Positions 4,453 through 44,913 of a stretch of 64,000 bases of DNA are shown here, piece after piece. How positions within the stretch are numbered: the stretch's first letter is position 1; each line of letters starts with the position of its first letter. The DNA comes from Escherichia coli. GTDB lineage: Bacteria; Pseudomonadota; Gammaproteobacteria; Enterobacterales; Enterobacteriaceae. Both the position numbers and the translations under genes were made by a program. The stretch lies in the NCBI RefSeq assembly GCF_048403405.1, contig NZ_CP183129.1. The stretch is one strand, 5' to 3'. The notes under the pieces are model-generated. The model did no database searches, was not told the DNA's origin, and saw nothing but the letters and a program-made list of their open reading frames with translations.

Positions 4453-6483
4453 TCACTGTTGCCCAGCCCAGATGACCAGCACTTTATCGTCGCCATGCTC
4501 ACGAACAAAGCCGTAGCCCTGCTTCAGCGAAAGTGTCGTTTGTTTGCCCTCGCCAATTGCGGGATGGCGGGCGCGGAACTGGCTGATTTTCTGCCAGTGC
4601 GCGACGCTGGCGGCAGATTTACCGCTAACATCCTGCCAGTTCATATCCGAACGCGTACCTTGCAGCGGATCCGAACCGGTGGGGCCGAACGGACGCGAGG
4701 ATTCATCACCATAAAAGATTTGTACCGCGCCTGGCGCTAATAATAATAACTCTGCTGCTTTGTCGCCCCCTTCACGGAACAGGCGGGTATCATGCGATGA
4801 GAGGTAGCTCAACACGTTGAAATCCTGCAATTTCTCCGCCATTTGCTGCCAGGTCGTATCCATCTGCGCCAGACAATCGACTGCTTTAGCCGCCTGCTCC
4901 TGATAATCGAAATTGATCATCGCATCGAAGCCGTGGCGATAGTAATCACTTTGCATCACGCCGTGGCCCCAGGCTTCACCGGTCATCCAGAACGGTTTGT
5001 CATCTAATGTTTTGTCGGGGTTAGCTTTTTTCCATTCGCGAAGTGCGGCGCTGGCTTCGGATTTCAGTTGCTGCCAGGCGGGCAACTCAACATGTTTGGC
5101 GGTGTCGACCCGAAAACCATCAATCCCATAGTCGCGGACCCACTGACTTAACCAGTGGGTTAAGTAATCGCGAGGGGTAAAGCCGTCGATGACTTTAGCG
5201 TGGGTATCCGTTTTGTTTTTATAGAACACCGGCAGACCAGAAGCGGTCGTTGATTCGGTTTTGATATCCGGCAAAAAGGCCAGCGACATAGTGAGATCGT
5301 CGAATCCAGGATTGTCGTAATCGCCGATATCGGTTCTGATCCAGTTTTTTCCCCACCATTTATCCCAGCCTGTTTTGTCGCTGAAATTAATGTAATCGTT
5401 AAAGCTATGCCAGGTTTGCCCGGCGGCAGGTTTCCAGTCGCTCCAGCGTTCACCCAACGTTTTTTTCACTTCGTCACCAGAAAGATATAACGCGCCAAAC
5501 TGATACTCCTGCATATCCGCCAGCGTGGCATAGCCAGTGTGGTTCATCACGACATCAAAGAGAATACGAATACCGCGCTGATGTGCGTTATCAACCAGCG
5601 TCCGTAGATCGGCTTCGCTGCCCATATTGGCATCAAGATTCGTCCAGTCCTGTGTGTAATAACCGTGGTAGGCATAATGCGGGAAGTCGCCTTTTGTACC
5701 GCCGCCGACCCAGCCGTGAATTTGCTCAAATGGGGCGCTTATCCATAAAGCATTGACGCCCAACTGCTTGAGGTAATCCAGTTTGTTGGTCAGGCCGAGT
5801 AAATCACCACCGTGGAAAGTGCCAATTTCTGCCATACCGTCTTTATGACGTCCGTAACTCTGGTCATTACTGGGATCGCCGTTTTCGAAACGATCTGTCA
5901 GCACAAAGTAAACTGTGGCGTTATGCCAGTCAAAAGGGGCAGGGGCGTCAGTTTCTGCCCGTTCCAGCAGGAGTAAACCGTTGCTGGTGGCAGCGGGTTG
6001 TAACGTTATTTGACCGTTCTTCACTATCGCAATTTGCTGGCTGTAATAATCCCGGACTGCGGCTCCCTCCGGAAAAGTGGCGCTGACATCCAGTGTGAGC
6101 GGTAATCCATCCCATTTCGGGCATTCACGGACCAGGCTTGCTACCGGTTCGACGGCGTTCTGGATGGAAATCATCAATGTTGGTGTACCGGAGCGGGTGT
6201 CTATTTGCAGTGTATATTCGCCGTCCCTGAACAATCGCCATTGAGGCGGCGTGTTGCTACAAGGTTGCAGGGAAAGCATCTGATTGAGTTTTATCGCATC
6301 CACAGGCTGCCAGCACTGTTGGTCAAAATTTAGCGTTAGTGGACGCGTACCTTTGGGCAACTGCGCGTGGCTGACAAATGTTCCCGTCCCCTGTTCGCTA
6401 AAGGCGGGAAACCCCGGAGAAGTCCAGCTGGCGGCAACGGCGAAGCCAGGAAGGAGTGTCAGAAAACAGGCGGCGAGTTTCAT
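4453..6483 (-). CDS. malS: periplasmic alpha-amylase (676 aa) with signal peptide
   Basis: 676-aa ORF, N-terminal signal peptide MKLAACFLTLLPGFAVA, GH13 alpha-amylase motifs. Confidence 0.9.
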   Translation of the reverse strand: MKLAACFLTLLPGFAVAASWTSPGFPAFSEQGTGTFVSHAQLPKGTRPLTLNFDQQCWQPVDAIKLNQMLSLQPCSNTPPQWRLFRDGEYTLQIDTRSGTPTLMISIQNAVEPVASLVRECPKWDGLPLTLDVSATFPEGAAVRDYYSQQIAIVKNGQITLQPAATSNGLLLLERAETDAPAPFDWHNATVYFVLTDRFENGDPSNDQSYGRHKDGMAEIGTFHGGDLLGLTNKLDYLKQLGVNALWISAPFEQIHGWVGGGTKGDFPHYAYHGYYTQDWTNLDANMGSEADLRTLVDNAHQRGIRILFDVVMNHTGYATLADMQEYQFGALYLSGDEVKKTLGERWSDWKPAAGQTWHSFNDYINFSDKTGWDKWWGKNWIRTDIGDYDNPGFDDLTMSLAFLPDIKTESTTASGLPVFYKNKTDTHAKVIDGFTPRDYLTHWLSQWVRDYGIDGFRVDTAKHVELPAWQQLKSEASAALREWKKANPDKTLDDKPFWMTGEAWGHGVMQSDYYRHGFDAMINFDYQEQAAKAVDCLAQMDTTWQQMAEKLQDFNVLSYLSSHDTRLFREGGDKAAELLLLAPGAVQIFYGDESSRPFGPTGSDPLQGTRSDMNWQDVSGKSAASVAHWQKISQFRARHPAIGEGKQTTLSLKQGYGFVREHGDDKVLVIWAGQQ

Positions 6484-6804
6484 GGCGGATGAGTCCTTAT
6501 TGCTGCGATTTCAGACAGTTTGCCAGCGATAAACCAGACAAAACTCATCCCTGAGCGGTAAGTCCACAGGATGAGAAGCAAGGGTGAGCGATCGCGCGCA
6601 AAAAACGGCTGAATTTTGCGATAAACCCCACATTTTCTGCGATTTAGCGCCAATCTGAATCGTTAACTCGTGACATAGTTTCAGATTTGGACTATTCCTT
6701 GGGGTGCTCTTGACAGCTATTTTTGATATGATTTGAGATTCAACTCTCAAATTTGTAAAAAAAATATAAGGTGTTGGAATGATTAAATCCAACCAGGAGA
6801 CCTG

Positions 6805-7629
6805 ATGATTTTGACTCCCATACGACGATATGGGGCGATGATTCTTATGTTACTCACTCTGGTGTTTTCGAGTGAGGTGTTAGCGAAGACGCACACAACA
6901 ACAGCGAGTCAAAAGTCCCACTTAACTAAAGCTAGTAATAAACAGGTAAGCAGTAAACAAGAGTATTCTCGCAATAGTGCAAAGAGTAGTTCACTTCCTG
7001 ATTTGCGAAAATACCCTTCCGGAACACCAAGGAAAAAGGCGTTTCTCCGGACTGTAATGCCTTACATTACCAGCCAAAATGCGGCCATTACTGCGGAACG
7101 TAACTGGCTCATTTCAAAACAGTATCAGGGCCAATGGTCACCTGCTGAGCGTGCGCGTCTGAAAGACATCGCCAAACGCTACAAGGTGAAGTGGTCTGGT
7201 AATACGCGAAAAATCCCGTGGAATACCTTGCTTGAACGCGTAGACATTATCCCTACCAGTATGGTGGCGACGATGGCTGCAGCAGAAAGCGGTTGGGGAA
7301 CGTCAAAGCTGGCGCGCAACAACAACAATCTGTTCGGCATGAAATGCATGAAAGGACGTTGTACCAATGCGCCGGGTAAAGTGAAAGGGTACTCACAGTT
7401 TAGTTCTGTCAAAGAATCGGTGAGCGCCTATGTCACTAACCTGAATACGCACCCGGCTTACTCTTCGTTCCGTAAATCGCGTGCACAGCTGCGTAAAGCG
7501 GATCAGGAAGTGACTGCCACAGCGATGATTCACAAGCTGAAGGGCTACTCGACCAAAGGGAAGAGTTATAACAACTACTTGTTCGCAATGTACCAGGATA
7601 ACCAACGGTTAATCGCGGCGCATATGTAA
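6805..7629 (+). CDS. bax: Bax protein (274 aa), putative glucosaminidase-domain protein
   Basis: 274-aa ORF with signal peptide; synteny between malS and xylR. Confidence 0.8.
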   Translation: MILTPIRRYGAMILMLLTLVFSSEVLAKTHTTTASQKSHLTKASNKQVSSKQEYSRNSAKSSSLPDLRKYPSGTPRKKAFLRTVMPYITSQNAAITAERNWLISKQYQGQWSPAERARLKDIAKRYKVKWSGNTRKIPWNTLLERVDIIPTSMVATMAAAESGWGTSKLARNNNNLFGMKCMKGRCTNAPGKVKGYSQFSSVKESVSAYVTNLNTHPAYSSFRKSRAQLRKADQEVTATAMIHKLKGYSTKGKSYNNYLFAMYQDNQRLIAAHM

Positions 7630-7736: not shown

Positions 7737-8915
7737 CTACAACATGACCTCGCTATTTACATCGCGATACTCTTTTGGCGTCGTGTCATATGCTTTTTTA
7801 AAAACAGAGTAGAAATATTGCAGCGATGGATAACCGCACATTTGCGATATCTCATTGATCGACAAGGTGGTTGAAATCAGCAGACTGCGCGCTTTCTCCA
7901 GCTTCTCGGCATGAATCATGGCATGGATGGTTTCCCCCACCTCTTCTTTAAAACGCTTCTCAAGATTGGAGCGCGAGATCCCGACCGCATCCAGTACCTG
8001 ATCCACTTTAATCCCTTTACAGGCGTGATTACGAATGTAATGCATGGCCTGAATAACGGCGGGATCGGTCAGCGAGCGGTAATCTGTTGAGCGCCGTTCA
8101 ATGACGCGAACTGGTGGGACCAAAATCCGCTGTAGCGGCATTTCTTCTTTATCTAATAATCGATGCAACAGTTTTGCCGCCTGATAGCCCATTTGCCGTG
8201 CGCCCTGAGCGACCGAAGAAAGGGCGACACGCGACAGATAGCGGGTCAGTTCTTCGTTATCGATGCCAATCACGCATAATTTTTCCGGTACGGGAATGTG
8301 TAGATGTTCACATACTTGCAGAATATGCCGCGCCCGGGCGTCAGTAACGGCAATAATCCCGGTTTGCGGTGGCAGCGTTTGTAGCCAGTCTGCCAGCCGA
8401 TTTTGCGCGTGTTGCCAGTTCTCTGGCGCGGTTTCTAACCCCTGATAAACCACTCCGCGATACTTTTCTTCGGCGACAAGCTGACGAAATGCATATTCGC
8501 GTTCAGTGGCCCAACGTTTACCGCTTGATTCCGGAAGACCATAAAAAGCAAAGCGGTTAACGCCTTTCTCTTTTAAATGCAAAAATGCGCTTTCAACCAG
8601 CGCATAGTTATCGGTGGCAATGTAATGAACGGGTGGGTAACTTTCGGCAAGGTGATACGAGCCACCAACCCCAACAATGGGGACGTCGACATCAGCCAGC
8701 GCTTGCTCGATTTGTTTGTCGTCGAAGTCGGCAATGACGCCATCTCCTAACCAGTCCTTGATTTTATCAATGCGGGCGCGGAAATCTTCTTCAATGAAAA
8801 TATCCCATTCCGATTGTGACGCCTGTAAATATTCCCCTACGCCTTCTACTACCTGCCGGTCATAGGCTTTATTGGCATTGAACAGTAATGTGATGCGGTG
8901 ACGTTTAGTAAACAT
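7737..8915 (-). CDS. xylR: xylose operon activator, AraC family (392 aa)
   Basis: 392-aa ORF; periplasmic-binding-like N-domain plus C-terminal AraC HTH; adjacent to xylFGH. Confidence 0.9.
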   Translation of the reverse strand: MFTKRHRITLLFNANKAYDRQVVEGVGEYLQASQSEWDIFIEEDFRARIDKIKDWLGDGVIADFDDKQIEQALADVDVPIVGVGGSYHLAESYPPVHYIATDNYALVESAFLHLKEKGVNRFAFYGLPESSGKRWATEREYAFRQLVAEEKYRGVVYQGLETAPENWQHAQNRLADWLQTLPPQTGIIAVTDARARHILQVCEHLHIPVPEKLCVIGIDNEELTRYLSRVALSSVAQGARQMGYQAAKLLHRLLDKEEMPLQRILVPPVRVIERRSTDYRSLTDPAVIQAMHYIRNHACKGIKVDQVLDAVGISRSNLEKRFKEEVGETIHAMIHAEKLEKARSLLISTTLSINEISQMCGYPSLQYFYSVFKKAYDTTPKEYRDVNSEVML

Positions 8916-8992
8916 GGTTCTTTTCCTGCTGAATCATGCAAAAACTCAAAACCGGTAATACGTTACCGGCTTTGAGAAAATTTTTATCAAAA

Positions 8993-10174
8993 TCAAGAAC
9001 GGCGTTTGGTTGCGGAGTCCATCCATACTGCCAGCAACAGAATCGCACCTTTAACGATATACTGCCAGAAGGTCGGTACATCCATCATACTCATGCCGTT
9101 ATCCAGTGAAGCCATGATGAATGCCCCCATAACCGCTCCGGCCACGCTCCCGACGCCGCCTGCCAGACTGGTGCCGCCAATCACACATGCGGCAATTGCG
9201 TCCAGTTCGGCGATATTTCCCGCAGAAGGTGAACCAGCGCCAAGTCGAGAACTGAGGATTAATCCGGCGATAGCGACCATTAATCCGTTAATAGCGAATA
9301 CGGCAAGTTTGGTGCGTTCAACGTTAATCCCGGAGAGACGTGCTGCTTCCAGATTGCCGCCGATGGCATAAATGCGTCGTCCAAATGCCGTCCGCGTTGC
9401 CATAAACATTCCGCCGAGTAACAGCAACGTCAGCATCAGAACAGGAGTGGGAACGCCACGGTAATCGTTCAACAGCCAGATTGCGCCTAAGACGATAATC
9501 GCCGTTAATGCCTGGCGACCGACAACTGCGGTAGAGGCCGGAGACTGCAAACCCAAAGCCTGACGGCGCATTCTTCCGCGCCATTGCCAGCCAACAAAAG
9601 CCATTAAGCCAAGCGCGCCAATGATGAAGCCGGTGCTGGCGGGTAGATAGCTTTGCCCGATTTGTGACATCGCGGCGCTGGTGGGGGAAACAGTCGTGCC
9701 GTTGGTGATGCCAATGAGTATGCCGCGAAATGCCAACATGCCCGCGAGGGTGACAATAAATGAAGGGACTTTGCGGTACGCGACCCACCATCCGTTCCAG
9801 GCACCGAGAAGCAGTCCCAGAACCAAAGTCACAATGATGGTAAGTGGCAAAGGCCAGCCTAGCCAGACGTCACAAATCGCCGCGACGCCACCTAATAGCC
9901 CCATCATTGAGCCGACGGAAAGGTCGATTTCAGCAGAAATTATGACGAACACCATTCCTACCGCGAGGATGCCGGTAATCGCGGTCTGGCGTAACAGGTT
10001 GGAGACGTTACGAGCGCTTAAGTAGGCACCATCGGTGGTCCAGGTAAAGAACAGCATGATTGCGATGATAGCTGCAATCATCACGAAGACCTGCAAATTC
10101 AGTGACTTCAACCCGGAAAAGCCACCGGATGTCGGTACGGCCAATTTCACTTCAGACGGATTGCTTTTCGACAT
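8993..10174 (-). CDS. xylH: xylose ABC transporter permease (393 aa)
   Basis: Polytopic membrane ORF; overlaps xylG stop by 23 bp. Confidence 0.9.
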
Positions 10175-11693
10175 GATGTTCGCTCCTCAATGCGGCTTCC
10201 ATCACCTGCTCCTGAGTCAGGTTATGATTTATCAGGTTGGCTTTTAGTTTCCCTTCATGCATCACCAGTACACGATCGCTAAGGCCGAGCACTTCAGGTA
10301 ATTCGGAAGAGATGACAATAACGGCAATACCCTGCTGGACGAGTTGGTTAATTAATTTGTAGATCTCGTATTTCGCGCCAATATCGATACCCCTGGTGGG
10401 CTCATCAAGAATGAGAATGCGCGGGTTGAGTAACAGGCAGCGAGCGAGGATCGCTTTTTGCTGATTACCGCCGCTCAAACGTCCAATAGCAAGGTCGGGG
10501 GACGACGTTTTAACTTTGAGTTGCTGGATTGATTCCAGAATACATTTTTGCTCTGCCGCGTCATCAAGCTGGCTAATACCGCCGGTAAATTTATTGAGTG
10601 CGGCGAGGGTAATATTTTTACCAACCGCCATTACCGGAACGATGCCGTCGCGCTTTCTGTCTTCGGGTACCATCGCAATCCCCTGGGCGATGGCTTGCTG
10701 ACAATTACGAATATCTACCTGTTTGCCATCAATATAAATTTTTCCTTCCCATTGTCCGGGCCACACGCCAAACAGGCACTGAATGGTCTCTGTACGTCCG
10801 GCACCAACGAGTCCGGCAATACCTAATATTTCGCCACGTTTCAGGGAAAACGAGACATCATTAACTCGTTTAATATGACGATTAACCGGATGGCATGCCG
10901 TCAGATGTTCAATACGTAATATTTCATCTCCGGTGGTATGTGGTTCATTAGGGTAAAGCGCGGTTAACTCTCGCCCGACCATCATGGTGATAATATCGTC
11001 TTCACTCATTCCGGCAGCATCACGCGTACCAATGTGCTGACCGTCGCGAATAACGCAAATCGTATCGGAAATCGCTTTGACTTCGTTGAGTTTGTGCGAA
11101 ATATAAATACAGGCGATACCGTGCTGTTGCAGATCGCGAATAATATCCAGTAAAACCGACGTTTCCTGCTCAGTTAATGAGGCTGTCGGTTCATCGAGAA
11201 TTAACAAACGCACCTGTTTATTAAGTGCCTTGGCAATTTCAACCAGTTGTTGTTGCCCAAGCCCTAAATCGCCAACGCGGGTATCGGGTGAAATGGATAA
11301 ACTGACCTGTGCGAGCAGCTTCTGACAGCGTAGCGTCATCAGGTCATAATCCATAATGCCATTGTGGGTTATTTCGTTACCCAGGAAGATATTTTCCAGC
11401 ACGGTCAATTCTTTCACCAGGGCCAATTCCTGGTGAATGATGGCGATACCTTTGCGTTCGGTATCGCGGATGTGACTCGCCTGAATCTCTTCTCCCGTAA
11501 AAATAATTTCGCCTTCGTAGGAGCCATGGGGGTAAATACCACACAGCACTTTCATCAGCGTTGATTTACCAGACCCATTTTCCCCACAGAGTGAGACGAT
11601 TTCGCCAGCATTCAACCGCAAGCTGACGTTATCAATCGCCTTCACACTGCCGAAGGTTTTGGTAATGTTCTTCATTTCAAGTAGATAAGGCAT
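10152..11693 (-). CDS. xylG: xylose ABC transporter ATP-binding protein, duplicated ABC domains (513 aa)
   Basis: Two Walker A motifs ([18 protein letters not shown]) and ABC signature LSGGNQQK. Confidence 0.9.
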
Positions 11694-19503: not shown

Positions 19504-21573
19504 ATGTCTGAGAAAACTTTTCTGGTGGAAATCGGCACTGAAGAGCTGCCACCAAAAGCACTGCGCAGCCTGGCTGAGTCCTTTGCTGCGAACTTTACTG
19601 CGGAGCTGGATAACGCTGGCCTCTCACACGGCACCGTTCAATGGTTTGCTGCTCCGCGTCGTCTGGCGCTGAAAGTAGCTAACCTGGCGGAAGCGCAACC
19701 GGATCGTGAAATCGAAAAACGCGGCCCGGCGATTGCTCAGGCGTTCGACGCTGAAGGCAAACCGAGCAAAGCGGCAGAAGGCTGGGCGCGTGGTTGCGGT
19801 ATTACCGTAGACCAGGCTGAGCGTCTGACTACCGATAAAGGTGAATGGCTGCTGTATCGCGCCCACGTGAAGGGCGAAAGCACCGAAGCACTGCTGCCGA
19901 ATATGGTTGCGACTTCGCTGGCGAAACTGCCGATCCCGAAACTGATGCGCTGGGGCGCAAGCGACGTGCACTTCGTGCGTCCGGTGCACACCGTGACTCT
20001 GTTGCTGGGCGACAAAGTTATTCCGGCTACCATTCTGGGTATTCAGTCCGATCGCGTAATTCGCGGCCACCGCTTTATGGGCGAGCCGGAATTTACCATC
20101 GACAATGCCGATCAGTATCCGGAAATTCTGCGTGAGCGCGGTAAAGTCATCGCCGATTACGAAGAACGTAAAGCGAAGATTAAAGCCGATGCTGAAGAAG
20201 CGGCGCGTAAGATTGGCGGTAACGCTGACTTAAGCGAAAGCCTGTTGGAAGAAGTCGCTTCGCTGGTGGAATGGCCGGCTGTGCTGACCGCAAAATTCGA
20301 AGAGAAATTCCTCGCGGTGCCGTCTGAAGCACTGGTTTACACCATGAAAGGTGACCAGAAGTACTTCCCGGTGTATGCGAACGACGGCAAACTTCTGCCG
20401 AACTTTATCTTCGTTGCCAACATCGAATCGAAAGATCCGCAGCAGATTATCTCCGGTAACGAGAAAGTCGTTCGTCCACGTCTGGCGGATGCTGAGTTCT
20501 TCTTCAATACCGACCGTAAAAAACGTCTGGAAGATAACCTGCCGCGCCTGCAAACCGTGCTGTTCCAGCAACAGCTGGGTACACTGCGTGACAAAACTGA
20601 CCGCATCCAGGCACTGGCTGGCTGGATTGCTGAACAGATTGGCGCTGACGTTAACCATGCTACCCGTGCGGGCCTGCTGTCTAAGTGCGACCTGATGACC
20701 AACATGGTCTTCGAGTTCACCGACACCCAGGGCGTTATGGGGATGCACTACGCGCGTCACGATGGCGAAGCGGAAGATGTTGCAGTGGCGCTGAACGAGC
20801 AGTATCAGCCGCGCTTTGCCGGTGATGACCTGCCGTCTAACCCGGTAGCCTGTGCGCTGGCGATTGCTGACAAGATGGATACTCTGGCGGGTATCTTCGG
20901 TATCGGCCAGCATCCGAAAGGCGACAAAGACCCGTTTGCGTTGCGTCGTGCCGCACTTGGCGTACTGCGTATTATCGTTGAGAAGAACCTCAACCTTGAT
21001 CTGCAAACGCTGACCGAAGAAGCAGTGCGTCTGTATGGCGATAAGCTGACTAATGCCAACGTGGTTGATGATGTTATCGACTTTATGCTCGGTCGCTTCC
21101 GCGCCTGGTATCAGGACGAAGGTTACACCGTTGACACCATCCAGGCGGTACTGGCGCGTCGTCCGACTCGTCCGGCAGATTTCGATGCCCGTATGAAGGC
21201 GGTATCGCATTTCCGTACCCTGGATGCAGCTGCTGCACTGGCGGCGGCGAACAAACGTGTATCCAACATTCTGGCGAAATCTGACGAAGTGCTGAGCGAC
21301 CGCGTGAATGCTTCTACCCTGAAAGAGCCGGAAGAAATTAAACTGGCGATGCAGGTTGTGGTGCTACGTGACAAGCTGGAGCCGTACTTTGCGGAAGGTC
21401 GTTACCAGGATGCGCTGGTCGAACTGGCAGAGCTGCGTGAGCCAGTTGATGCTTTCTTCGATAAAGTGATGGTCATGGTTGATGACAAAGAATTGCGAAT
21501 CAACCGTCTTACCATGCTGGAGAAACTGCGCGAATTATTCCTGCGCGTTGCGGATATTTCGCTGTTGCAGTAA
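19504..21573 (+). CDS. glyS: glycine--tRNA ligase beta subunit (689 aa)
   Basis: 689-aa ORF 9 bp after glyQ; recognised GlyS sequence. Confidence 0.95.
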
Positions 21574-21617: not shown

Positions 21618-21871
21618 TCGCTAAATAATACAGCAACCTTTAATAATCTTCTGATGAATAAAGATTATCTCATATATTAATTTTATGAGATTTTTTTAGG
21701 ATTATATCAAGGAGAAGAAACGAACTTATTAAGCTAGAATAGCCACGGGTGCTTGAGACTGTTTGTCTCAGGTATTCACCGAAAGGCAGACAGAGAAAAG
21801 CCCCACCTGACTATAAATCAAAAGTGTACTGCACCCATTTTGTTGGACGATGAAATGGAATAGCCCCTAAT

Positions 21872-22393
21872 ATGTCAAAGCCAAAATACCCTTTTGAAAA
21901 GCGCCTTGAAGTCGTGAATCACTACTTCACAACTGATGATGGTTACAGGATCATCTCGGCACGTTTTGGTGTCCCCCGAACCCAGGTCAGGACATGGGTT
22001 GCCCTCTATGAAAAACATGGAGAAAAAGGTTTAATTCCCAAACCTAAAGGCGTTAGTGCTGATCCAGAGTTGCGTATTAAGGTCGTGAAAGCTGTGATCG
22101 AGCAGCACATGTCCCTTAATCAGGCTGCTGCTCACTTTATGCTTGCTGGTAGTGGTTCTGTAGCCAGGTGGCTGAAGGTCTATGAAGAGCGCGGAGAAGC
22201 TGGTTTACGCGCGCTCAAGATTGGCACCAAAAGAAACATTGCAATATCAGTTGATCCAGAAAAAGCGGCATCAGCATTGGAGCTGTCAAAAGACCGACGC
22301 ATTGAGGATCTTGAAAGGCAAGTTCGATTTCTTGAAACGCGGCTTATGTATCTAAAAAAGCTGAAAGCCTTAGCTCATCCCACGAAAAAGTAA
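21872..22393 (+). CDS. insJ: IS150 OrfA (173 aa, HTH DNA-binding)
   Basis: 173-aa ORF inside IS150 left part. Confidence 0.9.
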   Translation: MSKPKYPFEKRLEVVNHYFTTDDGYRIISARFGVPRTQVRTWVALYEKHGEKGLIPKPKGVSADPELRIKVVKAVIEQHMSLNQAAAHFMLAGSGSVARWLKVYEERGEAGLRALKIGTKRNIAISVDPEKAASALELSKDRRIEDLERQVRFLETRLMYLKKLKALAHPTKK

Positions 22394-23627: not shown

Positions 23628-23656
23628 AAAAAAATCCCCGCCAAATGGCAGGGATC
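23628..23656 (-). terminator. rho-independent terminator of cspA
   Basis: On the minus strand: ccctgccatttggcgggga followed by TTTTTTT, 27 bp after the cspA stop. Confidence 0.55.
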
Positions 23657-23682
23657 TTAGATTCTGTGCTTTTAAGCAGAGA

Positions 23683-23895
23683 TTACAGGCTGGTTACGTT
23701 ACCAGCTGCCGGGCCTTTAGCGCCGCTTTCGATGGTGAAGGACACTTTCTGACCTTCGTCCAGAGATTTGTAACCATCGTTCTGGATAGCAGAGAAGTGT
23801 ACGAACACGTCTTTAGAGCCATCGTCAGGAGTGATGAAGCCGAAGCCTTTGTCAGCGTTGAACCATTTTACGATACCAGTCATTTTACCGGACAT
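23683..23895 (-). CDS. cspA: major cold-shock protein CspA (70 aa)
   Basis: [21 protein letters not shown]... with RNP1/RNP2 motifs. Confidence 0.95.
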
Positions 23896-24091
23896 AGTGT
23901 ATTACCTTTAATAATTAAGTGTGCCTTTCGGCGATATGGCGTGCTTTACAGATTTTGAAGCGTTAAAGGAATGTGCACTACGAGGGGTATCAACGATAAC
24001 TCTTGAAGGGACTTGCCTTACTACACTGCTTTAATGGTCTGTACGTCAAACCGTTGATGTGCATTAAGCCACGCATTGGCGGGTGTTGCAA
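23896..24091 (-). promoter_or_regulatory. cspA promoter and 159-nt 5' UTR
   Basis: -10 CTTAAT (24063-24068) and -35 TTGCAA (24086-24091) with 17-bp spacing; transcript start ACGGUUUGACG maps to about 24054; AT-rich upstream element. Confidence 0.6.
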
Positions 24092-35251: not shown

Positions 35252-35328
<77 letters not shown>

Positions 35329-35664
35329 AATTCGAAATGCCTGCTCAGCGAGCAGGCTTTTTTGCATTTGTAGCTCATGAGGATGAGAACCTCCGGGGGC
35401 GGGGAGGTTCGACTCGAGCGAAGCGAGAGAACGTTGCGCCAGCAACGGCCCGCAGGGCGAGCCACGAAGTGGCGAGTAATCCTCTATCACCGACCAAATT
35501 CGAAAAGCCTGCTCAGCGAGCAGGCTTTTTTGCATCTGCAGCCCATGAGGATGAGAACCTCCGGGGGCAGGGAGGTTCGACTCGAGCGAAGCGAGAGAAC
35601 GTTGCGCCAGCAACGGCCCGCAGGGCGAGCCACGAAGTGGCGAGTAATCCTCTGGCACCGACCA
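35329..35664 (+). repeat. two tandem 168-bp direct repeats after proK, each with a terminator-like hairpin and a copy of the tRNA-Pro 3' end
   Basis: Unit 1 35329-35496, unit 2 35497-35664, about 95% identical; each has gcctgctcagcgagcaggcTTTTTT and ends in aatcctct(a/g)(t/g)caccgacca. Confidence 0.85.
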
Positions 35665-43278: not shown

Positions 43279-43753
43279 AAAGTCCTGTCCAGAAAGAAGT
43301 CGGCCTCGCAAAAATGAATAAACCCAGTTTCTCTTGCGCAACAGGTGGAGAAGTCGAATACGCAGTATGTAAAAAATGAGGCAACAGATTCACTGGGGAG
43401 GTCGCGAGTAGGCGCAATTCTACAAAATTGCGCATTTCACTACCAGTCTGGAGTCAGCCCGGATATGAACTGCAACTATTGCAAATAAAGAAATTAAGCT
43501 GGAAGGCATCGCGCAATGAGGAAGATTGCCGGGTGCTGACGGTAAAAAGCAATCGTAGAATCAGCGGCAAGCCGGAAAGGTTCCGGTGAGGCGCAATGTT
43601 GCGGGGGCTTTATCCCTGGTGGCATTGGTTGCTGGAGAGAGAAAACCCCCGCACGTTGCAGGTATGCACCTGACAACATCACGGGGGCCATTCTTGAACC
43701 TACACAACTCAAGAATAGCCGCGAAACGTTGTCATTACAACAGAGGCGGCTAT

Positions 43754-43861
43754 ATGACGCTCGCAGAGCTGGGCATGGCCTTCTGGCACGATTTAGCGGC
43801 TCCGGTCATTGCTGGCATTCTTGCCAGCATGATCGTGAACTGGCTGAACAAGCAGAAGTAA
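43754..43861 (+). CDS. Ldr-family type I toxin peptide, copy 1 (35 aa, ...NWLNKQK)
   Basis: MTLAELGMAFWHDLAAPVIAGILASMIVNWLNKQK; ATG at 43754. Confidence 0.8.
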   Translation: MTLAELGMAFWHDLAAPVIAGILASMIVNWLNKQK

Positions 43862-44236
43862 CGTGTCAGACGGGCGTCAGGCTGCCGTAATGGCAATTTG
43901 CGCCCGGATCAGGCCGCAGGGATAAAACTCTGCGGCCTTTTTCGTAAGAAAAATGCAACGGTTGCAAGCGGATAATATTCTGCGGAATGCGCAGCACAGA
44001 GTGAAGAAGTGACGGATTCCGGAACAGAAAAACAGTCGTAGAATCAGCGGCAAGCCGGAAGGGTTCCGGTGAGGCGCAATGTTGCGGGGGCTTAATCCCT
44101 GGTGGCATTGGTTGCTGGAGAGAGAAAACCCCCGCACGTTGCAGGTATGCACCTGACAACACCACGGGGGCCATTCTTGCATCCAAACAATACAAGAATA
44201 GCCGCGAAACGTTGTCATTACAACAGAGGCGGCTAT

Positions 44237-44344
44237 ATGACGCTCGCAGAGCTGGGCATGGCCTTCTGGCATGATTTAGCGGCTCCGGTCATTGCTGGCA
44301 TTCTTGCCAGCATGATCGTGAACTGGCTGAATAAGCGGAAGTAA
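44237..44344 (+). CDS. Ldr-family type I toxin peptide, copy 2 (35 aa, ...NWLNKRK)
   Basis: MTLAELGMAFWHDLAAPVIAGILASMIVNWLNKRK; 483 bp after copy 1. Confidence 0.8.
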   Translation: MTLAELGMAFWHDLAAPVIAGILASMIVNWLNKRK

Positions 44345-44719
44345 CGTGTCAGACGGGCGTCAGGCTGCCGTAATGGCAATTTGCGCCCGGACCAGGCCGC
44401 AGGGATAAAACTCTGCGGCCTTTTTCGTAAGAAAAATGCAACGGTTGCAAGCGGATAATATTCTGCGGAATGCGCAGCACAGAGTGAAGAAGTGATGGAT
44501 TCCGGAACAGAAAAACAGTCGTAGAATCAGCGGCAAGCCGGAAAGGTTCCGGTGAGGCGCAATGTTGCGGGGGCTTAATCCCTGGTGGCATTGGTTGCTG
44601 GAGAGAGAAAACCCCCGCACGTTGCAGGTATGCACCTGACAACACCACGGGGGCCATTCTTGCATCTAGACCATTCAAGAATAGCCGCGAAACGTTGTCA
44701 TTACAACAGAGGCGGCTAT

Positions 44720-44827
44720 ATGACGCTCGCAGAGCTGGGCATGGCCTTCTGGCATGATTTAGCGGCTCCGGTCATTGCTGGCATTCTTGCCAGCATGATC
44801 GTGAACTGGCTGAACAAGCGGAAGTAA
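44720..44827 (+). CDS. Ldr-family type I toxin peptide, copy 3 (35 aa, ...NWLNKRK)
   Basis: Identical peptide to copy 2; 483 bp after copy 2. Confidence 0.8.
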   Translation: MTLAELGMAFWHDLAAPVIAGILASMIVNWLNKRK

Positions 44828-44913
44828 CGTGTCATGCGGGCGTCAGGCTGCCGTAATGGCAATTTGCGCCCGGACCAGGCCGCAGGGGTGAAACTCTGCG
44901 GCCTTTTTCGTTC

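What the first reader, a model, noticed from the sequence alone, without database searches (positions are those of the whole stretch)
43553..44910. Three tandem LDR (ldr/rdl) type I toxin-antitoxin units between yhjV and bcsG
Three 483-bp direct repeats each encode the 35-residue Ldr toxin with its own promoter region and terminator. As I recall, K-12 has a single LDR-D unit at this locus and a three-copy array elsewhere, so this looks like a local expansion or exchange. Such arrays are unstable by homologous recombination, and copy number may affect toxin dosage.
Basis: partly seen in the sequence, partly recalled or inferred. Interest (0 to 1): 0.5.

Follow-up and report, generated by a model that had tools for sequence, protein, structure and literature searches.

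The report
Common three-copy ldrD/rdlD toxin-antitoxin array
Three tandem copies of a tiny toxin gene, each with its own antisense-RNA antidote, really do sit between yhjV and bcsG, but this is ordinary: about a third of complete E. coli genomes, including the published BL21(DE3) genome, carry the same three-copy arrangement.

Summary
Window 43545-44911 is a 483-bp tandem repeat (2.8 copies, 97% match). Each unit holds an intact 35-aa Ldr ORF (Pfam PF13940, E=1e-25), an rdlD-family antisense RNA on the opposite strand (Rfam RF01813, 82-84 bits against a threshold of 50) and a terminator.

The reading as a "local expansion or exchange" is not supported.
- Among 5,426 complete E. coli genomes, about 1,837 (34%) have three units at this locus, about 950 (17%) have four or more, and about 2,636 (49%) have one or two.
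[quoted passage not shown] I confirmed this in NC_012971.2.
- The three units are distinct, old paralogue types. Their diagnostic 40-mers occur exactly in 282, 1,659 and 1,261 genomes. Two of the types also occur in arrays of two genome records that the GTDB-based collection holds as separate Escherichia species representatives.
- All units are LDR-D type (94.5-97% identical to K-12 LDR-D, about 80% to an LdrA/B/C-type unit), so there was no exchange with the chaA-kdsA array.

One side observation may be worth a look. Nearly all between-unit divergence sits in a 21-nt patch at the 5' tail of rdl.

Verdict: real, functional-looking, already known, low interest.

The parts
43545..44911 (.). Whole LDR-D array: three tandem units, period 483
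   Evidence: TRF; the repeat finder
43545..43945 (+). Unit 1 core (401 nt), 95.5% identical to K-12 LDR-D
43946..44027 (.). Inter-unit spacer 1 (82 nt). It is absent from single-copy genomes and carries the -35 region of the unit 2 ldr promoter (inferred).
   Evidence: Alignment A1; 81/82 identical to spacer 2
44028..44428 (+). Unit 2 core, 94.5% identical to K-12 LDR-D
44429..44510 (.). Inter-unit spacer 2
44511..44911 (+). Unit 3 core, 97.0% identical to K-12 LDR-D. Its right end matches the K-12 right junction with bcsG.
43754..43861 (+). ldr copy 1, 35 aa MTLAELGMAFWHDLAAPVIAGILASMIVNWLNKQK (F3L and R34Q relative to K-12 LdrD)
   Evidence: Pfam PF13940 E=1.3e-25; annotated WP_000170743.1 in an identical genome
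44237..44344 (+). ldr copy 2, 35 aa ...NKRK (F3L relative to K-12 LdrD). This is the commonest LdrD-group variant in my sample (24 of 36 units).
   Evidence: WP_001295224.1
44720..44827 (+). ldr copy 3, same peptide as copy 2
43640..43705 (-). rdl copy 1 (antisense antitoxin RNA). About 11 nt at the 5' end are unpaired in the predicted fold, followed by a long hairpin and a U tail.
   Evidence: Rfam RF01813, 83.8 bits (threshold 50); fold -32.3 kcal/mol, z=-4.5
44123..44188 (-). rdl copy 2
   Evidence: RF01813, 81.7 bits; fold z=-3.2
44606..44671 (-). rdl copy 3
   Evidence: RF01813, 81.8 bits; fold z=-3.9
43911..43943 (+). ldr mRNA terminator 1 (11-bp GC-rich stem followed by TTTTC)
44394..44426 (+). 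ldr mRNA terminator 2
44877..44909 (+). ldr mRNA terminator 3
43689..43709 (.). Hypervariable 21-nt patch of unit 1 (rdl nt 1-17 plus 4 nt upstream of the rdl 5' end; complementary to part of the ldr 5'UTR). Allele CATTCTTGAACCTACACAACT.
   Evidence: pi 0.21 against 0.02-0.04 elsewhere; exact 40-mer in 282 genomes
44172..44192 (.). Hypervariable patch of unit 2, allele CATTCTTGCATCCAAACAATA
   Evidence: exact 40-mer in 1,659 genomes
44655..44675 (.). Hypervariable patch of unit 3, allele CATTCTTGCATCTAGACCATT
   Evidence: exact 40-mer in 1,261 genomes
43556..43561 (+). Inferred -10 box (TAGAAT) of the ldr promoter in unit 1, repeated at 44039-44044 and 44522-44527. Read from the sequence; not called by the consensus scan.
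   Evidence: Sequence; scan negative. Inference.
43712..43740 (-). Inferred rdl promoter of unit 1: -10 TATTCT (43712-43717), 17-nt spacer, -35 TTGTAA (43735-43740). The -10 lies 6 nt upstream of the Rfam-defined rdl 5' end. Repeated at +483 and +966.
   Evidence: Sequence; scores 8/12, below the scan threshold of 9/12. Inference.
43596..43673 (+). Conserved 25-codon leader ORF in the ldr 5'UTR (GAGG 4 nt upstream of its ATG). Its 3' part lies under rdl. Also at 44079-44156 and 44562-44639. It is one candidate for the proposed ldrX leader; which ORF is ldrX is unresolved.
   Evidence: ldrX hypothesis in PMC4147584
42007..43278 (-). yhjV (left flank)
   Evidence: Annotation of a 100%-identical genome
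44914..46593 (-). bcsG (right flank)

Best explanation
This is the normal, polymorphic LDR-D locus of E. coli in its common three-unit state: three paralogous ldrD/rdlD type I toxin-antitoxin modules in tandem. In each unit the + strand gives an ldr mRNA with a roughly 185-nt leader (length inferred from the -10 box), a 35-aa membrane-active Ldr peptide and an intrinsic terminator. The - strand gives a roughly 66-nt Rdl RNA that is fully complementary to the middle of that leader, not to the ldr ribosome-binding site. Established for K-12 ldrD/rdlD: Rdl pairs with the leader, the duplex is cut by RNase III, and toxin translation is held off. Only proposed for K-12: that this works by blocking a leader ORF (ldrX) to which ldr translation is coupled. 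The array was inherited, not created in this strain. Unequal crossing-over and gene conversion among units that are about 96% identical shuffle and add or remove old, distinct unit types, which gives 1 to at least 4 units in different lineages. Shown here: the sequence anatomy, family membership, population frequency and age of the unit types. Inferred from K-12 work: transcription, toxicity and the repression mechanism in this strain.
For: Repeat structure. Ldr ORFs and Pfam PF13940 (E=1.3e-25). Three RF01813 rdlD hits at 82-84 bits (threshold 50) with stable hairpins. Terminators. A 100%-identical 3,158-bp region in an independent complete genome (TUM14771), annotated with three Ldr CDS. Frequency in 5,426 complete genomes: coverage of at least 80% for 2,636 genomes with the 2-copy query and 4,473 with the 3-copy query, which gives about 1,837 three-copy genomes and about 950 with four or more. 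Examples are ATCC 11775 (3), BL21(DE3) (3), IAI39, O111:H11 and LR-46 (4), Nissle and CFT073 (2), K-12 and O157:H7 (1). Published statement that BL21(DE3) has three ldrD/rdlD pairs between bcsG and yhjV, with transcriptome data: PMC5435950. Lineage-specific duplications of the LdrD group: PMC2887945. Each unit's patch allele is exact in 282, 1,659 and 1,261 genomes, typically once per genome. The unit 2 and unit 3 alleles also occur in two-unit arrays with the same spacer in one of two records held as separate Escherichia species representatives (SCPM-O-B-8794); the other (E1V33) also has a two-unit array. Salmonella (arizonae, diarizonae) has a single D-type unit between yhjV and bcsG, and the Citrobacter loci that reach a flank have a single D-type unit next to bcsG and/or yhjV. 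Mechanism in K-12: PMC4147584 and PMC7373196 (ldrD-rdlD duplex captured in vivo, and both RNAs slightly more abundant and longer-lived in an RNase III mutant).
Against: No expression or toxicity data exist for this strain. The ldr and rdl promoters do not reach the consensus scan threshold and are placed by eye. Copy 1 carries R34Q in the charged C-terminus, with unknown effect. The ldrX coupling model is a hypothesis even for K-12. The split between one-copy and two-copy genomes is only estimated from sampled rows. The copy-number counts rely on how BLAST pieces were joined, and I checked this only on the listed rows.
Confidence: 0.93

Rival explanations
1. Assembly artefact: a single LDR-D unit was over-expanded to three during assembly.
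For: Tandem 483-bp repeats are a known hazard for short-read assemblers. A draft E. albertii contig ends inside a unit (L014).
Against: The three units are not identical: they differ at 10-16 of 401 positions, clustered in a diagnostic patch. An over-expansion would produce identical copies. The same 3,158 bp occur at 100% identity in an independent complete genome, and about 1,837 complete genomes have three units here.
Confidence: 0.01
2. Recent strain-specific local expansion of a single ancestral LDR-D unit.
For: K-12 and O157:H7 have one unit. Salmonella and the Citrobacter loci that could be placed have one unit, so the deep ancestor was single-copy. The exact three-type combination in the window is uncommon: only 8-10 genomes are at least 99% identical over the region.
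Against: Each unit type is shared exactly by hundreds to thousands of genomes. Two of the types also occur in another Escherichia species representative. The same spacer joins units in those records. The units differ from each other as much as from K-12's unit. The duplications are therefore old, and only the combination may be recent.
Confidence: 0.04
3. Exchange or transposition of the three-unit LDR-A/B/C array (chaA-kdsA locus) into the yhjV-bcsG locus.
For: The copy number (three) matches the K-12 ldrABC array (PMC4147584).
Against: The units are 94.5-97% identical to K-12 LDR-D but only about 80% identical to an LdrA/B/C-type unit of E. coli E69 (L021). The peptides differ from K-12 LdrD at 1-2 residues but from the A/B/C-type peptide MTLAQFAMIFWHDLAAPILAGIITAAIVGWWRNRK at 13 of 35. 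The period is 483 bp, against about 540 bp spacing in an A-type array (L031).
Confidence: 0.01
4. The array is real, but one or more units are silent or decaying copies with no function.
For: No phenotype is known for deleting any chromosomal Fst/Ldr system (PMC7472228). Copy 1 has R34Q. In my sample nonsynonymous changes slightly outnumber synonymous ones in the CDS (7 against 5), although diversity is low.
Against: All three ORFs, Shine-Dalgarno sequences, rdl hairpins and terminators are intact. Outside the patch, diversity is low (pi 0.02-0.04) in every functional segment. Transcription of RdlD RNAs from the three-pair BL21(DE3) locus is reported.
Confidence: 0.1

Closest known systems
Three ldrD/rdlD pairs between bcsG and yhjV in E. 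coli BL21(DE3) (Kim et al. 2017, NAR; PMC5435950)
   Same: Same locus, same flanks, same unit number, same 483-bp spacing and the same middle unit type. The Ldr peptide of units 2 and 3 here equals that of BL21 units 1 and 2.
   Different: The first and last unit types differ, and BL21's last unit is the K-12 type encoding LdrD with F3. Unit 1 here encodes an R34Q variant.
LDR-D (ldrD/rdlD) of E. coli K-12 (Kawano et al. 2002, cited in PMC4147584)
   Same: Same locus. Cores are 94.5-97% identical, and the organisation is the same: long leader, antisense Rdl opposite the 5'UTR, 35-aa toxin, terminator.
   Different: K-12 has one unit and no inter-unit spacer. The K-12 patch allele is not among the three here. 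LdrD has F3 where these peptides have L3.
LDR-A/B/C array at chaA-kdsA in K-12
   Same: A tandem array of three ldr/rdl units from the same Pfam and Rfam families.
   Different: Different locus and a different subgroup: about 80% DNA identity, 13 of 35 peptide differences, and a longer period.
hok/sok (mok-coupled) type I toxin-antitoxin systems
   Same: The antisense RNA targets the leader rather than the toxin's ribosome-binding site. The proposed leader-ORF coupling and RNase III cleavage of the duplex are also shared.
   Different: The toxin family is unrelated, and the ldrX coupling has not been demonstrated.
ibs/sib repeats (Han et al. 2010; PMC2943612)
   Same: Multi-copy, cis-encoded antitoxin RNAs with slight sequence variation between copies. 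For Sib, short variable regions make repression cognate-specific.
   Different: For Rdl no such discrimination has been shown. Here the rdl RNAs differ at only 2-5 of 66 nt.

Membership tests
Ldr/Rdl type I toxin-antitoxin (LDR repeat) | 35-aa hydrophobic Ldr peptide with a conserved W and a charged C-terminus | tested here: met
   Pfam PF13940 Ldr_toxin, E=1.3e-25, residues 1-35 of 35. Three intact ORFs. NCBIfam has no model that hits.
Ldr/Rdl type I toxin-antitoxin (LDR repeat) | Cis-encoded antisense RNA of about 60-66 nt opposite the ldr 5'UTR | tested here: met
   Rfam RF01813 rdlD, full-length hits at 81.7-83.8 bits (threshold 50) on the minus strand, 49-114 nt upstream of each ldr ATG. 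Stable hairpin folds.
Ldr/Rdl type I toxin-antitoxin (LDR repeat) | Both RNAs transcribed; a stable ldr mRNA and an Rdl RNA | not testable with these tools
   Only terminators and by-eye promoters are available. RNA-seq evidence exists for the BL21(DE3) three-pair locus (PMC5435950) and for K-12 (PMC7373196).
Ldr/Rdl type I toxin-antitoxin (LDR repeat) | Ldr overproduction is toxic and Rdl counteracts it | not testable with these tools
   Shown for K-12 LdrD/RdlD in the literature (PMC4147584). The variants here differ by 1-2 residues.
LDR-D subgroup (as opposed to LDR-A/B/C) | Located between yhjV and bcsG | tested here: met
   Flank annotation. Same context in Salmonella (arizonae, diarizonae); the Citrobacter loci that reach a flank have bcsG and/or yhjV beside the unit.
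LDR-D subgroup (as opposed to LDR-A/B/C) | Sequence closer to K-12 LDR-D than to A/B/C-type units | tested here: met
   94.5-97.0% identity to K-12 LDR-D against 80.5% to the E. coli E69 A/B/C-type unit. Peptide differences are 1-2 against 13.
hok/sok-like leader-ORF coupling (ldrX model) | A leader ORF whose translation is required for toxin translation and is blocked by the antisense RNA | tested here: inconclusive
   A conserved 25-codon ORF with a Shine-Dalgarno sequence (43596-43673) ends under rdl. An in-frame ATG at 43664 also lies under rdl, but it is lost (ATG to ATA) in unit 1 of three other genomes. Which of these, if either, is ldrX cannot be decided from sequence.

The most novel reading that the evidence does not exclude
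The 21-nt hypervariable patch at the 5' tail and start site of rdl (and the complementary stretch of the ldr leader) may be maintained by selection. If so, arrays would be sets of partly orthogonal toxin-antitoxin modules in which each Rdl preferentially recognises its own ldr mRNA, as shown for Sib/Ibs. The discrete patch types would then be old balanced polymorphisms shared across Escherichia species. The evidence does not exclude this: diversity in the patch is 7.7 times that of the rest of the unit, the alleles are discrete, in 13 of the 15 genomes or records examined no patch type is repeated within an array (UTAK-2 is the only one that repeats a type), and alleles are shared with other Escherichia species representatives. 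Against it, the rdl RNAs within this window differ at only 2-5 of 66 nt, part of the patch lies upstream of the rdl 5' end, and a mutational or gene-conversion boundary effect could explain the pattern equally well.
Probability: 0.2. Interest if true: 0.4.

Novelty: already known. Interest (0 to 1): 0.1.

Why it matters
It matters little as a discovery. The three-unit LDR-D array is a common allele that RefSeq already annotates, and it is published for BL21(DE3).

It is useful as a calibration point. K-12 is not representative at this locus: about half of complete E. coli genomes carry three or more units, so differences from K-12 here should not be flagged as unusual.

In practice, the near-identical units make unit-specific expression assays, deletions and short-read assembly difficult. 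The 21-nt patch gives unit-specific probe and primer sites.

If the patch reflects selection for cognate-specific antitoxin recognition, the locus would be a natural system for studying how duplicated type I toxin-antitoxin modules avoid or exploit cross-talk.

Tried and rejected
- NCBIfam search with both Ldr peptides returned no family. Pfam was used instead.
- The consensus promoter scan found no sigma-70 site in 43300-45100, so promoters are given only as by-eye inferences.
- I tested whether the 203-nt yhjV-side intergenic region is a decayed fourth unit, prompted by the 20-nt D2 repeat. Local alignment scores (17-19) are at shuffle level (mean 18.2, maximum 27), so this was rejected.
- The 1-copy query, meant to count one-copy genomes alone, also joined two-copy genomes (2,635 against 2,636). 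N1 and N2 could therefore only be split roughly from sampled rows: two copies in about 500-900 genomes and one copy in about 1,700-2,100.
- Kawano's 2012 review was not held. Kawano 2002 was not retrieved, so the mapped transcription starts could not be checked.
- My first two regular expressions for unit extraction missed units and were replaced by fuzzy matching.
- My first coordinate guess for the BL21(DE3) locus was about 30 kb off and was corrected.
- The apparent paired changes at 43654/55 and 43666/67 in some genomes looked like stem covariation. They map to a bulge and a loop of the rdl hairpin, so they are not compensatory pairs.
- The sub-threshold Rfam 'sok' hits over the ldr leaders (29-31 bits against a threshold of 59) were not taken as evidence of anything.
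Full report

Yes. Tandem Repeats Finder reports a single array at 43545-44911 with period 483, 2.8 copies, 97% matches and no indels. The repeat finder gives three in-register copies spaced 483 and 483 bp.

Aligning the units with the K-12 locus shows a 401-nt core repeated three times, at 43545-43945, 44028-44428 and 44511-44911. Two 82-nt spacers separate the cores and are 81/82 identical. The third core runs straight into the 3' end of bcsG, as the single K-12 unit does. The cores are 385-391/401 identical to each other.

**2. What is in each unit?**

- On the + strand there is a 35-codon ORF at 43754-43861, 44237-44344 and 44720-44827.
  - Copy 1 encodes MTLAELGMAFWHDLAAPVIAGILASMIVNWLNKQK. 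Copies 2 and 3 end in NKRK.
  - The peptide matches Pfam Ldr_toxin PF13940 over its whole length (E=1.3e-25).
  - Both exact sequences are present on about 1,000 or more public contigs.
- An AGAGG Shine-Dalgarno sequence lies 7 nt upstream of each ATG (sequence).
- Each ORF is followed by an 11-bp GC-rich hairpin and a T run.
- On the - strand, 49-114 nt upstream of each ldr ATG, lies a full-length match to Rfam rdlD RF01813 at 81.7-83.8 bits, against a gathering score of 50.
  - These RNAs fold into a long hairpin preceded by a 5' tail, about 11 nt of which are unpaired in the predicted fold (-30 to -32 kcal/mol, z -3.2 to -4.5).
- By eye, a TAGAAT -10 box lies in each core (43556-43561 and at +483 and +966). 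An rdl promoter can also be read: TTGTAA, 17 nt, TATTCT, then 6 nt to the Rfam-defined rdl 5' end (43712-43740 on the - strand). Neither reached the consensus scan threshold, so these are inferences.
- The flanks are yhjV and bcsG. This comes from the annotation of strain TUM14771, which is 100% identical over 3,158 bp.

**3. How unusual are three units here?**

Not unusual. I searched 5,426 complete E. coli genomes with queries carrying 900-bp flanks, so that a genome with more units than the query cannot reach 80% coverage.
- The two-unit query (Nissle) reached at least 80% coverage in 2,636 genomes.
- The three-unit query (this window) reached it in 4,473 genomes.
- The listed rows behave as designed. 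Three-unit genomes give 66-67% coverage with the two-unit query. Genomes with four or more units give 72% with the three-unit query. One-unit genomes give 95-97%.

From these counts:

| Units at this locus | Genomes | Share |
|---|---|---|
| one or two | about 2,636 | 49% |
| three | about 1,837 | 34% |
| four or more, or rearranged | about 950 | 17% |

From evenly spaced sample rows, two-unit genomes number roughly 500-900 and one-unit genomes roughly 1,700-2,100.

Verified examples:

| Units | Genomes |
|---|---|
| 1 | K-12 MG1655, O157:H7 |
| 2 | Nissle 1917, CFT073 |
| 3 | type strain ATCC 11775, KFu022, UTAK-2, O111:H21 |
| 4 | IAI39, O111:H11, LR-46 |

**4. Is it already published?**

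Yes. Kim et al. [quoted passage not shown] I confirmed three Ldr CDS spaced 483 bp apart between bcsG and yhjV in NC_012971.2.

Fozo et al. 2010 had already inferred an ancestral duplication into LdrD and LdrB groups, followed by lineage-specific duplications and losses, and they used tandem duplication as a search criterion for type I loci (PMC2887945).

**5. Local expansion, exchange or inheritance?**

Exchange with the LDR-A/B/C array is excluded.
- The cores are 94.5-97.0% identical to K-12 LDR-D.
- They are about 80% identical to the A/B/C-type unit of E. coli E69. That unit's peptide, MTLAQFAMIFWHDLAAPILAGIITAAIVGWWRNRK, differs at 13 of 35 positions.

Recent expansion is also unlikely. 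Nearly all differences between units fall in a 21-nt patch (43689-43709 in unit 1) that takes discrete forms.
- 40-mers centred on the three patches of this window occur exactly in 282, 1,659 and 1,261 genomes, usually once per genome.
- In a sample of 13 E. coli genomes, arrays read as strings of these types:

| Genome(s) | Patch types in order |
|---|---|
| this window | I-C-F |
| BL21(DE3), KFu022 | A-C-E |
| O111:H11, LR-46 | B-C-D-A |
| O111:H21 | B-C-D |
| IAI39 | B-E-A-G |
| Nissle, CFT073 | B-A |
| O157 | B |
| K-12 | E |
| ATCC 11775 | H-F-G |

- Two records that the GTDB-based collection holds as separate Escherichia species representatives have two-unit arrays with the same spacer. 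Their types are A-D (E1V33) and F-C (SCPM-O-B-8794).
- Salmonella enterica arizonae and diarizonae have a single D-type unit between yhjV and bcsG. The Citrobacter loci that reach a flank have a single D-type unit beside bcsG and/or yhjV.

The locus therefore predates Escherichia as a single unit. It was duplicated early within Escherichia, and its unit types have since been shuffled, lost and gained, most simply by unequal crossing-over and gene conversion (inference). Unit 1's left end and unit 3's right end match the K-12 junctions. This is what one expects if one-unit and multi-unit alleles interconvert by recombination within the cores.

The particular I-C-F combination is uncommon: only 8-10 genomes are at least 99% identical over the region. 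Its components are all common.

**6. Is it an assembly artefact?**

Very unlikely.
- The units differ at 10-16 positions with diagnostic patches.
- An independent complete genome has the identical sequence.
- Thousands of complete genomes show multi-unit arrays.

Only spanning reads of this isolate could prove it.

**7. How does it most likely work?**

This is established for K-12 ldrD/rdlD and inferred for the units here.
- LdrD overproduction kills the cell and condenses the nucleoid, and RdlD counteracts this. RdlD overlaps the 5'UTR, not the ribosome-binding site (PMC4147584).
- The ldrD-rdlD duplex forms in vivo and is processed by RNase III (PMC7373196).
[quoted passage not shown] This is unproven.

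In this window each leader has a conserved 25-codon ORF with its own GAGG (43596-43673 and repeats) that ends under rdl. There is also an in-frame ATG at 43664 under rdl. That ATG is changed to ATA in the first units of three other genomes, so it is not universally kept. I cannot say which ORF is ldrX.

No deletion phenotype is known for any chromosomal Fst/Ldr system (PMC7472228), so the biological role remains open. That is a general gap in the field, not a feature of this locus.

**8. A side observation: the hypervariable patch**

Across 36 units (27 distinct sequences) from 13 E. coli genomes:
- The 21-nt patch has nucleotide diversity 0.21, against 0.02-0.04 in every other segment of the unit.
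- 11 of 21 patch columns vary, against 48 of 371 elsewhere (Fisher p=4e-5).
- It is the most diverse 21-nt window in the unit.

The patch covers rdl nt 1-17 (its 5' tail, which includes the predicted unpaired stretch) plus 4 nt upstream of the Rfam-defined 5' end. By analogy with Sib/Ibs, where short variable regions make repression cognate-specific (PMC2943612), this could mean unit-specific recognition.

The case is weak. The three rdl RNAs here differ at only 2-5 of 66 nt, and no experiment bears on it. I found no paper in the searchable library that addresses Rdl discrimination, which does not show that none exists.

**9. Verdict**

- The identification as LDR type I toxin-antitoxin units is correct.
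- This is a common, annotated and published allele of a well-known locus, so novelty is 'already known' and interest is low.

Noticed in passing
window 43689-43709, 44172-44192, 44655-44675: Almost all divergence between LDR-D units is packed into a 21-nt patch at the 5' tail and start site of rdl (pi 0.21 against 0.02-0.04 elsewhere). The patch comes in discrete types that are shared across E. coli lineages and with other Escherichia species representatives. Only one array in the sample (UTAK-2) repeats a type.
   Followed up: partly
window 43603-43756, 44086-44239, 44569-44722 (+ strand): Each ldr leader gives a full-length but sub-threshold match to Rfam RF01794 'sok antitoxin (CssrC)' (29-31 bits, threshold 59, E about 1e-3), on the sense strand of ldr. 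This may reflect a structural resemblance of the ldr and hok leaders, or the make-up of that Rfam seed.
   Followed up: no
window 21747-21901 (+), 21872-22393 (+): A second type I locus: an above-threshold RF01794 sok hit (83 bits) just downstream of a 689-aa ORF (19504-21573). An IS3-family orfA-like transposase ORF (MSKPKYPFEKRLEVVNHYF...) starts inside the hit. From memory, this resembles the IS150-disrupted hokA locus of K-12.
   Followed up: partly
window 35252-35664 (+): tRNA-Pro(CGG) is followed by two tandem RtT repeats (RF00391, 101 and 99 bits). The BL21(DE3) annotation lists one RtT sRNA at the corresponding place.
   Followed up: no
window 23628-24055 (-): A full-length cspA thermoregulator (RF01766, 501 bits). 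This is ordinary.
   Followed up: no
L008, L009, L012 unit 1 (equivalent to window 43654-55 and 43666-67): The first units of the O111:H11, LR-46 and O111:H21 arrays share the linked changes CG to TA and GC to AT in a bulge and in the loop of the rdl hairpin. The second change destroys the in-frame ATG at 43664 in the ldr leader.
   Followed up: no
L035 (Bacillus sp. EB106-08-02-XG196, 503-bp contig, coverage 0.66): This contig is 92-99% identical to the E. coli LDR-D array, including the inter-unit spacer. It is almost certainly E. coli contamination in a Bacillus assembly.
   Followed up: no
L014 (E. albertii NBRC 107761, 2,423-bp contig): The contig ends inside an LDR-D unit next to bcsG. 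This shows that draft assemblies break in this array, so copy number cannot be read from short-read drafts.
   Followed up: no
L003 (IAI39) 4800-7297; L009 (LR-46) 8609-10180: In IAI39, bcsG next to the array is truncated by an IS4 element. In LR-46, bcsE carries an internal stop. Cellulose genes beside the array are thus inactivated in some strains.
   Followed up: no
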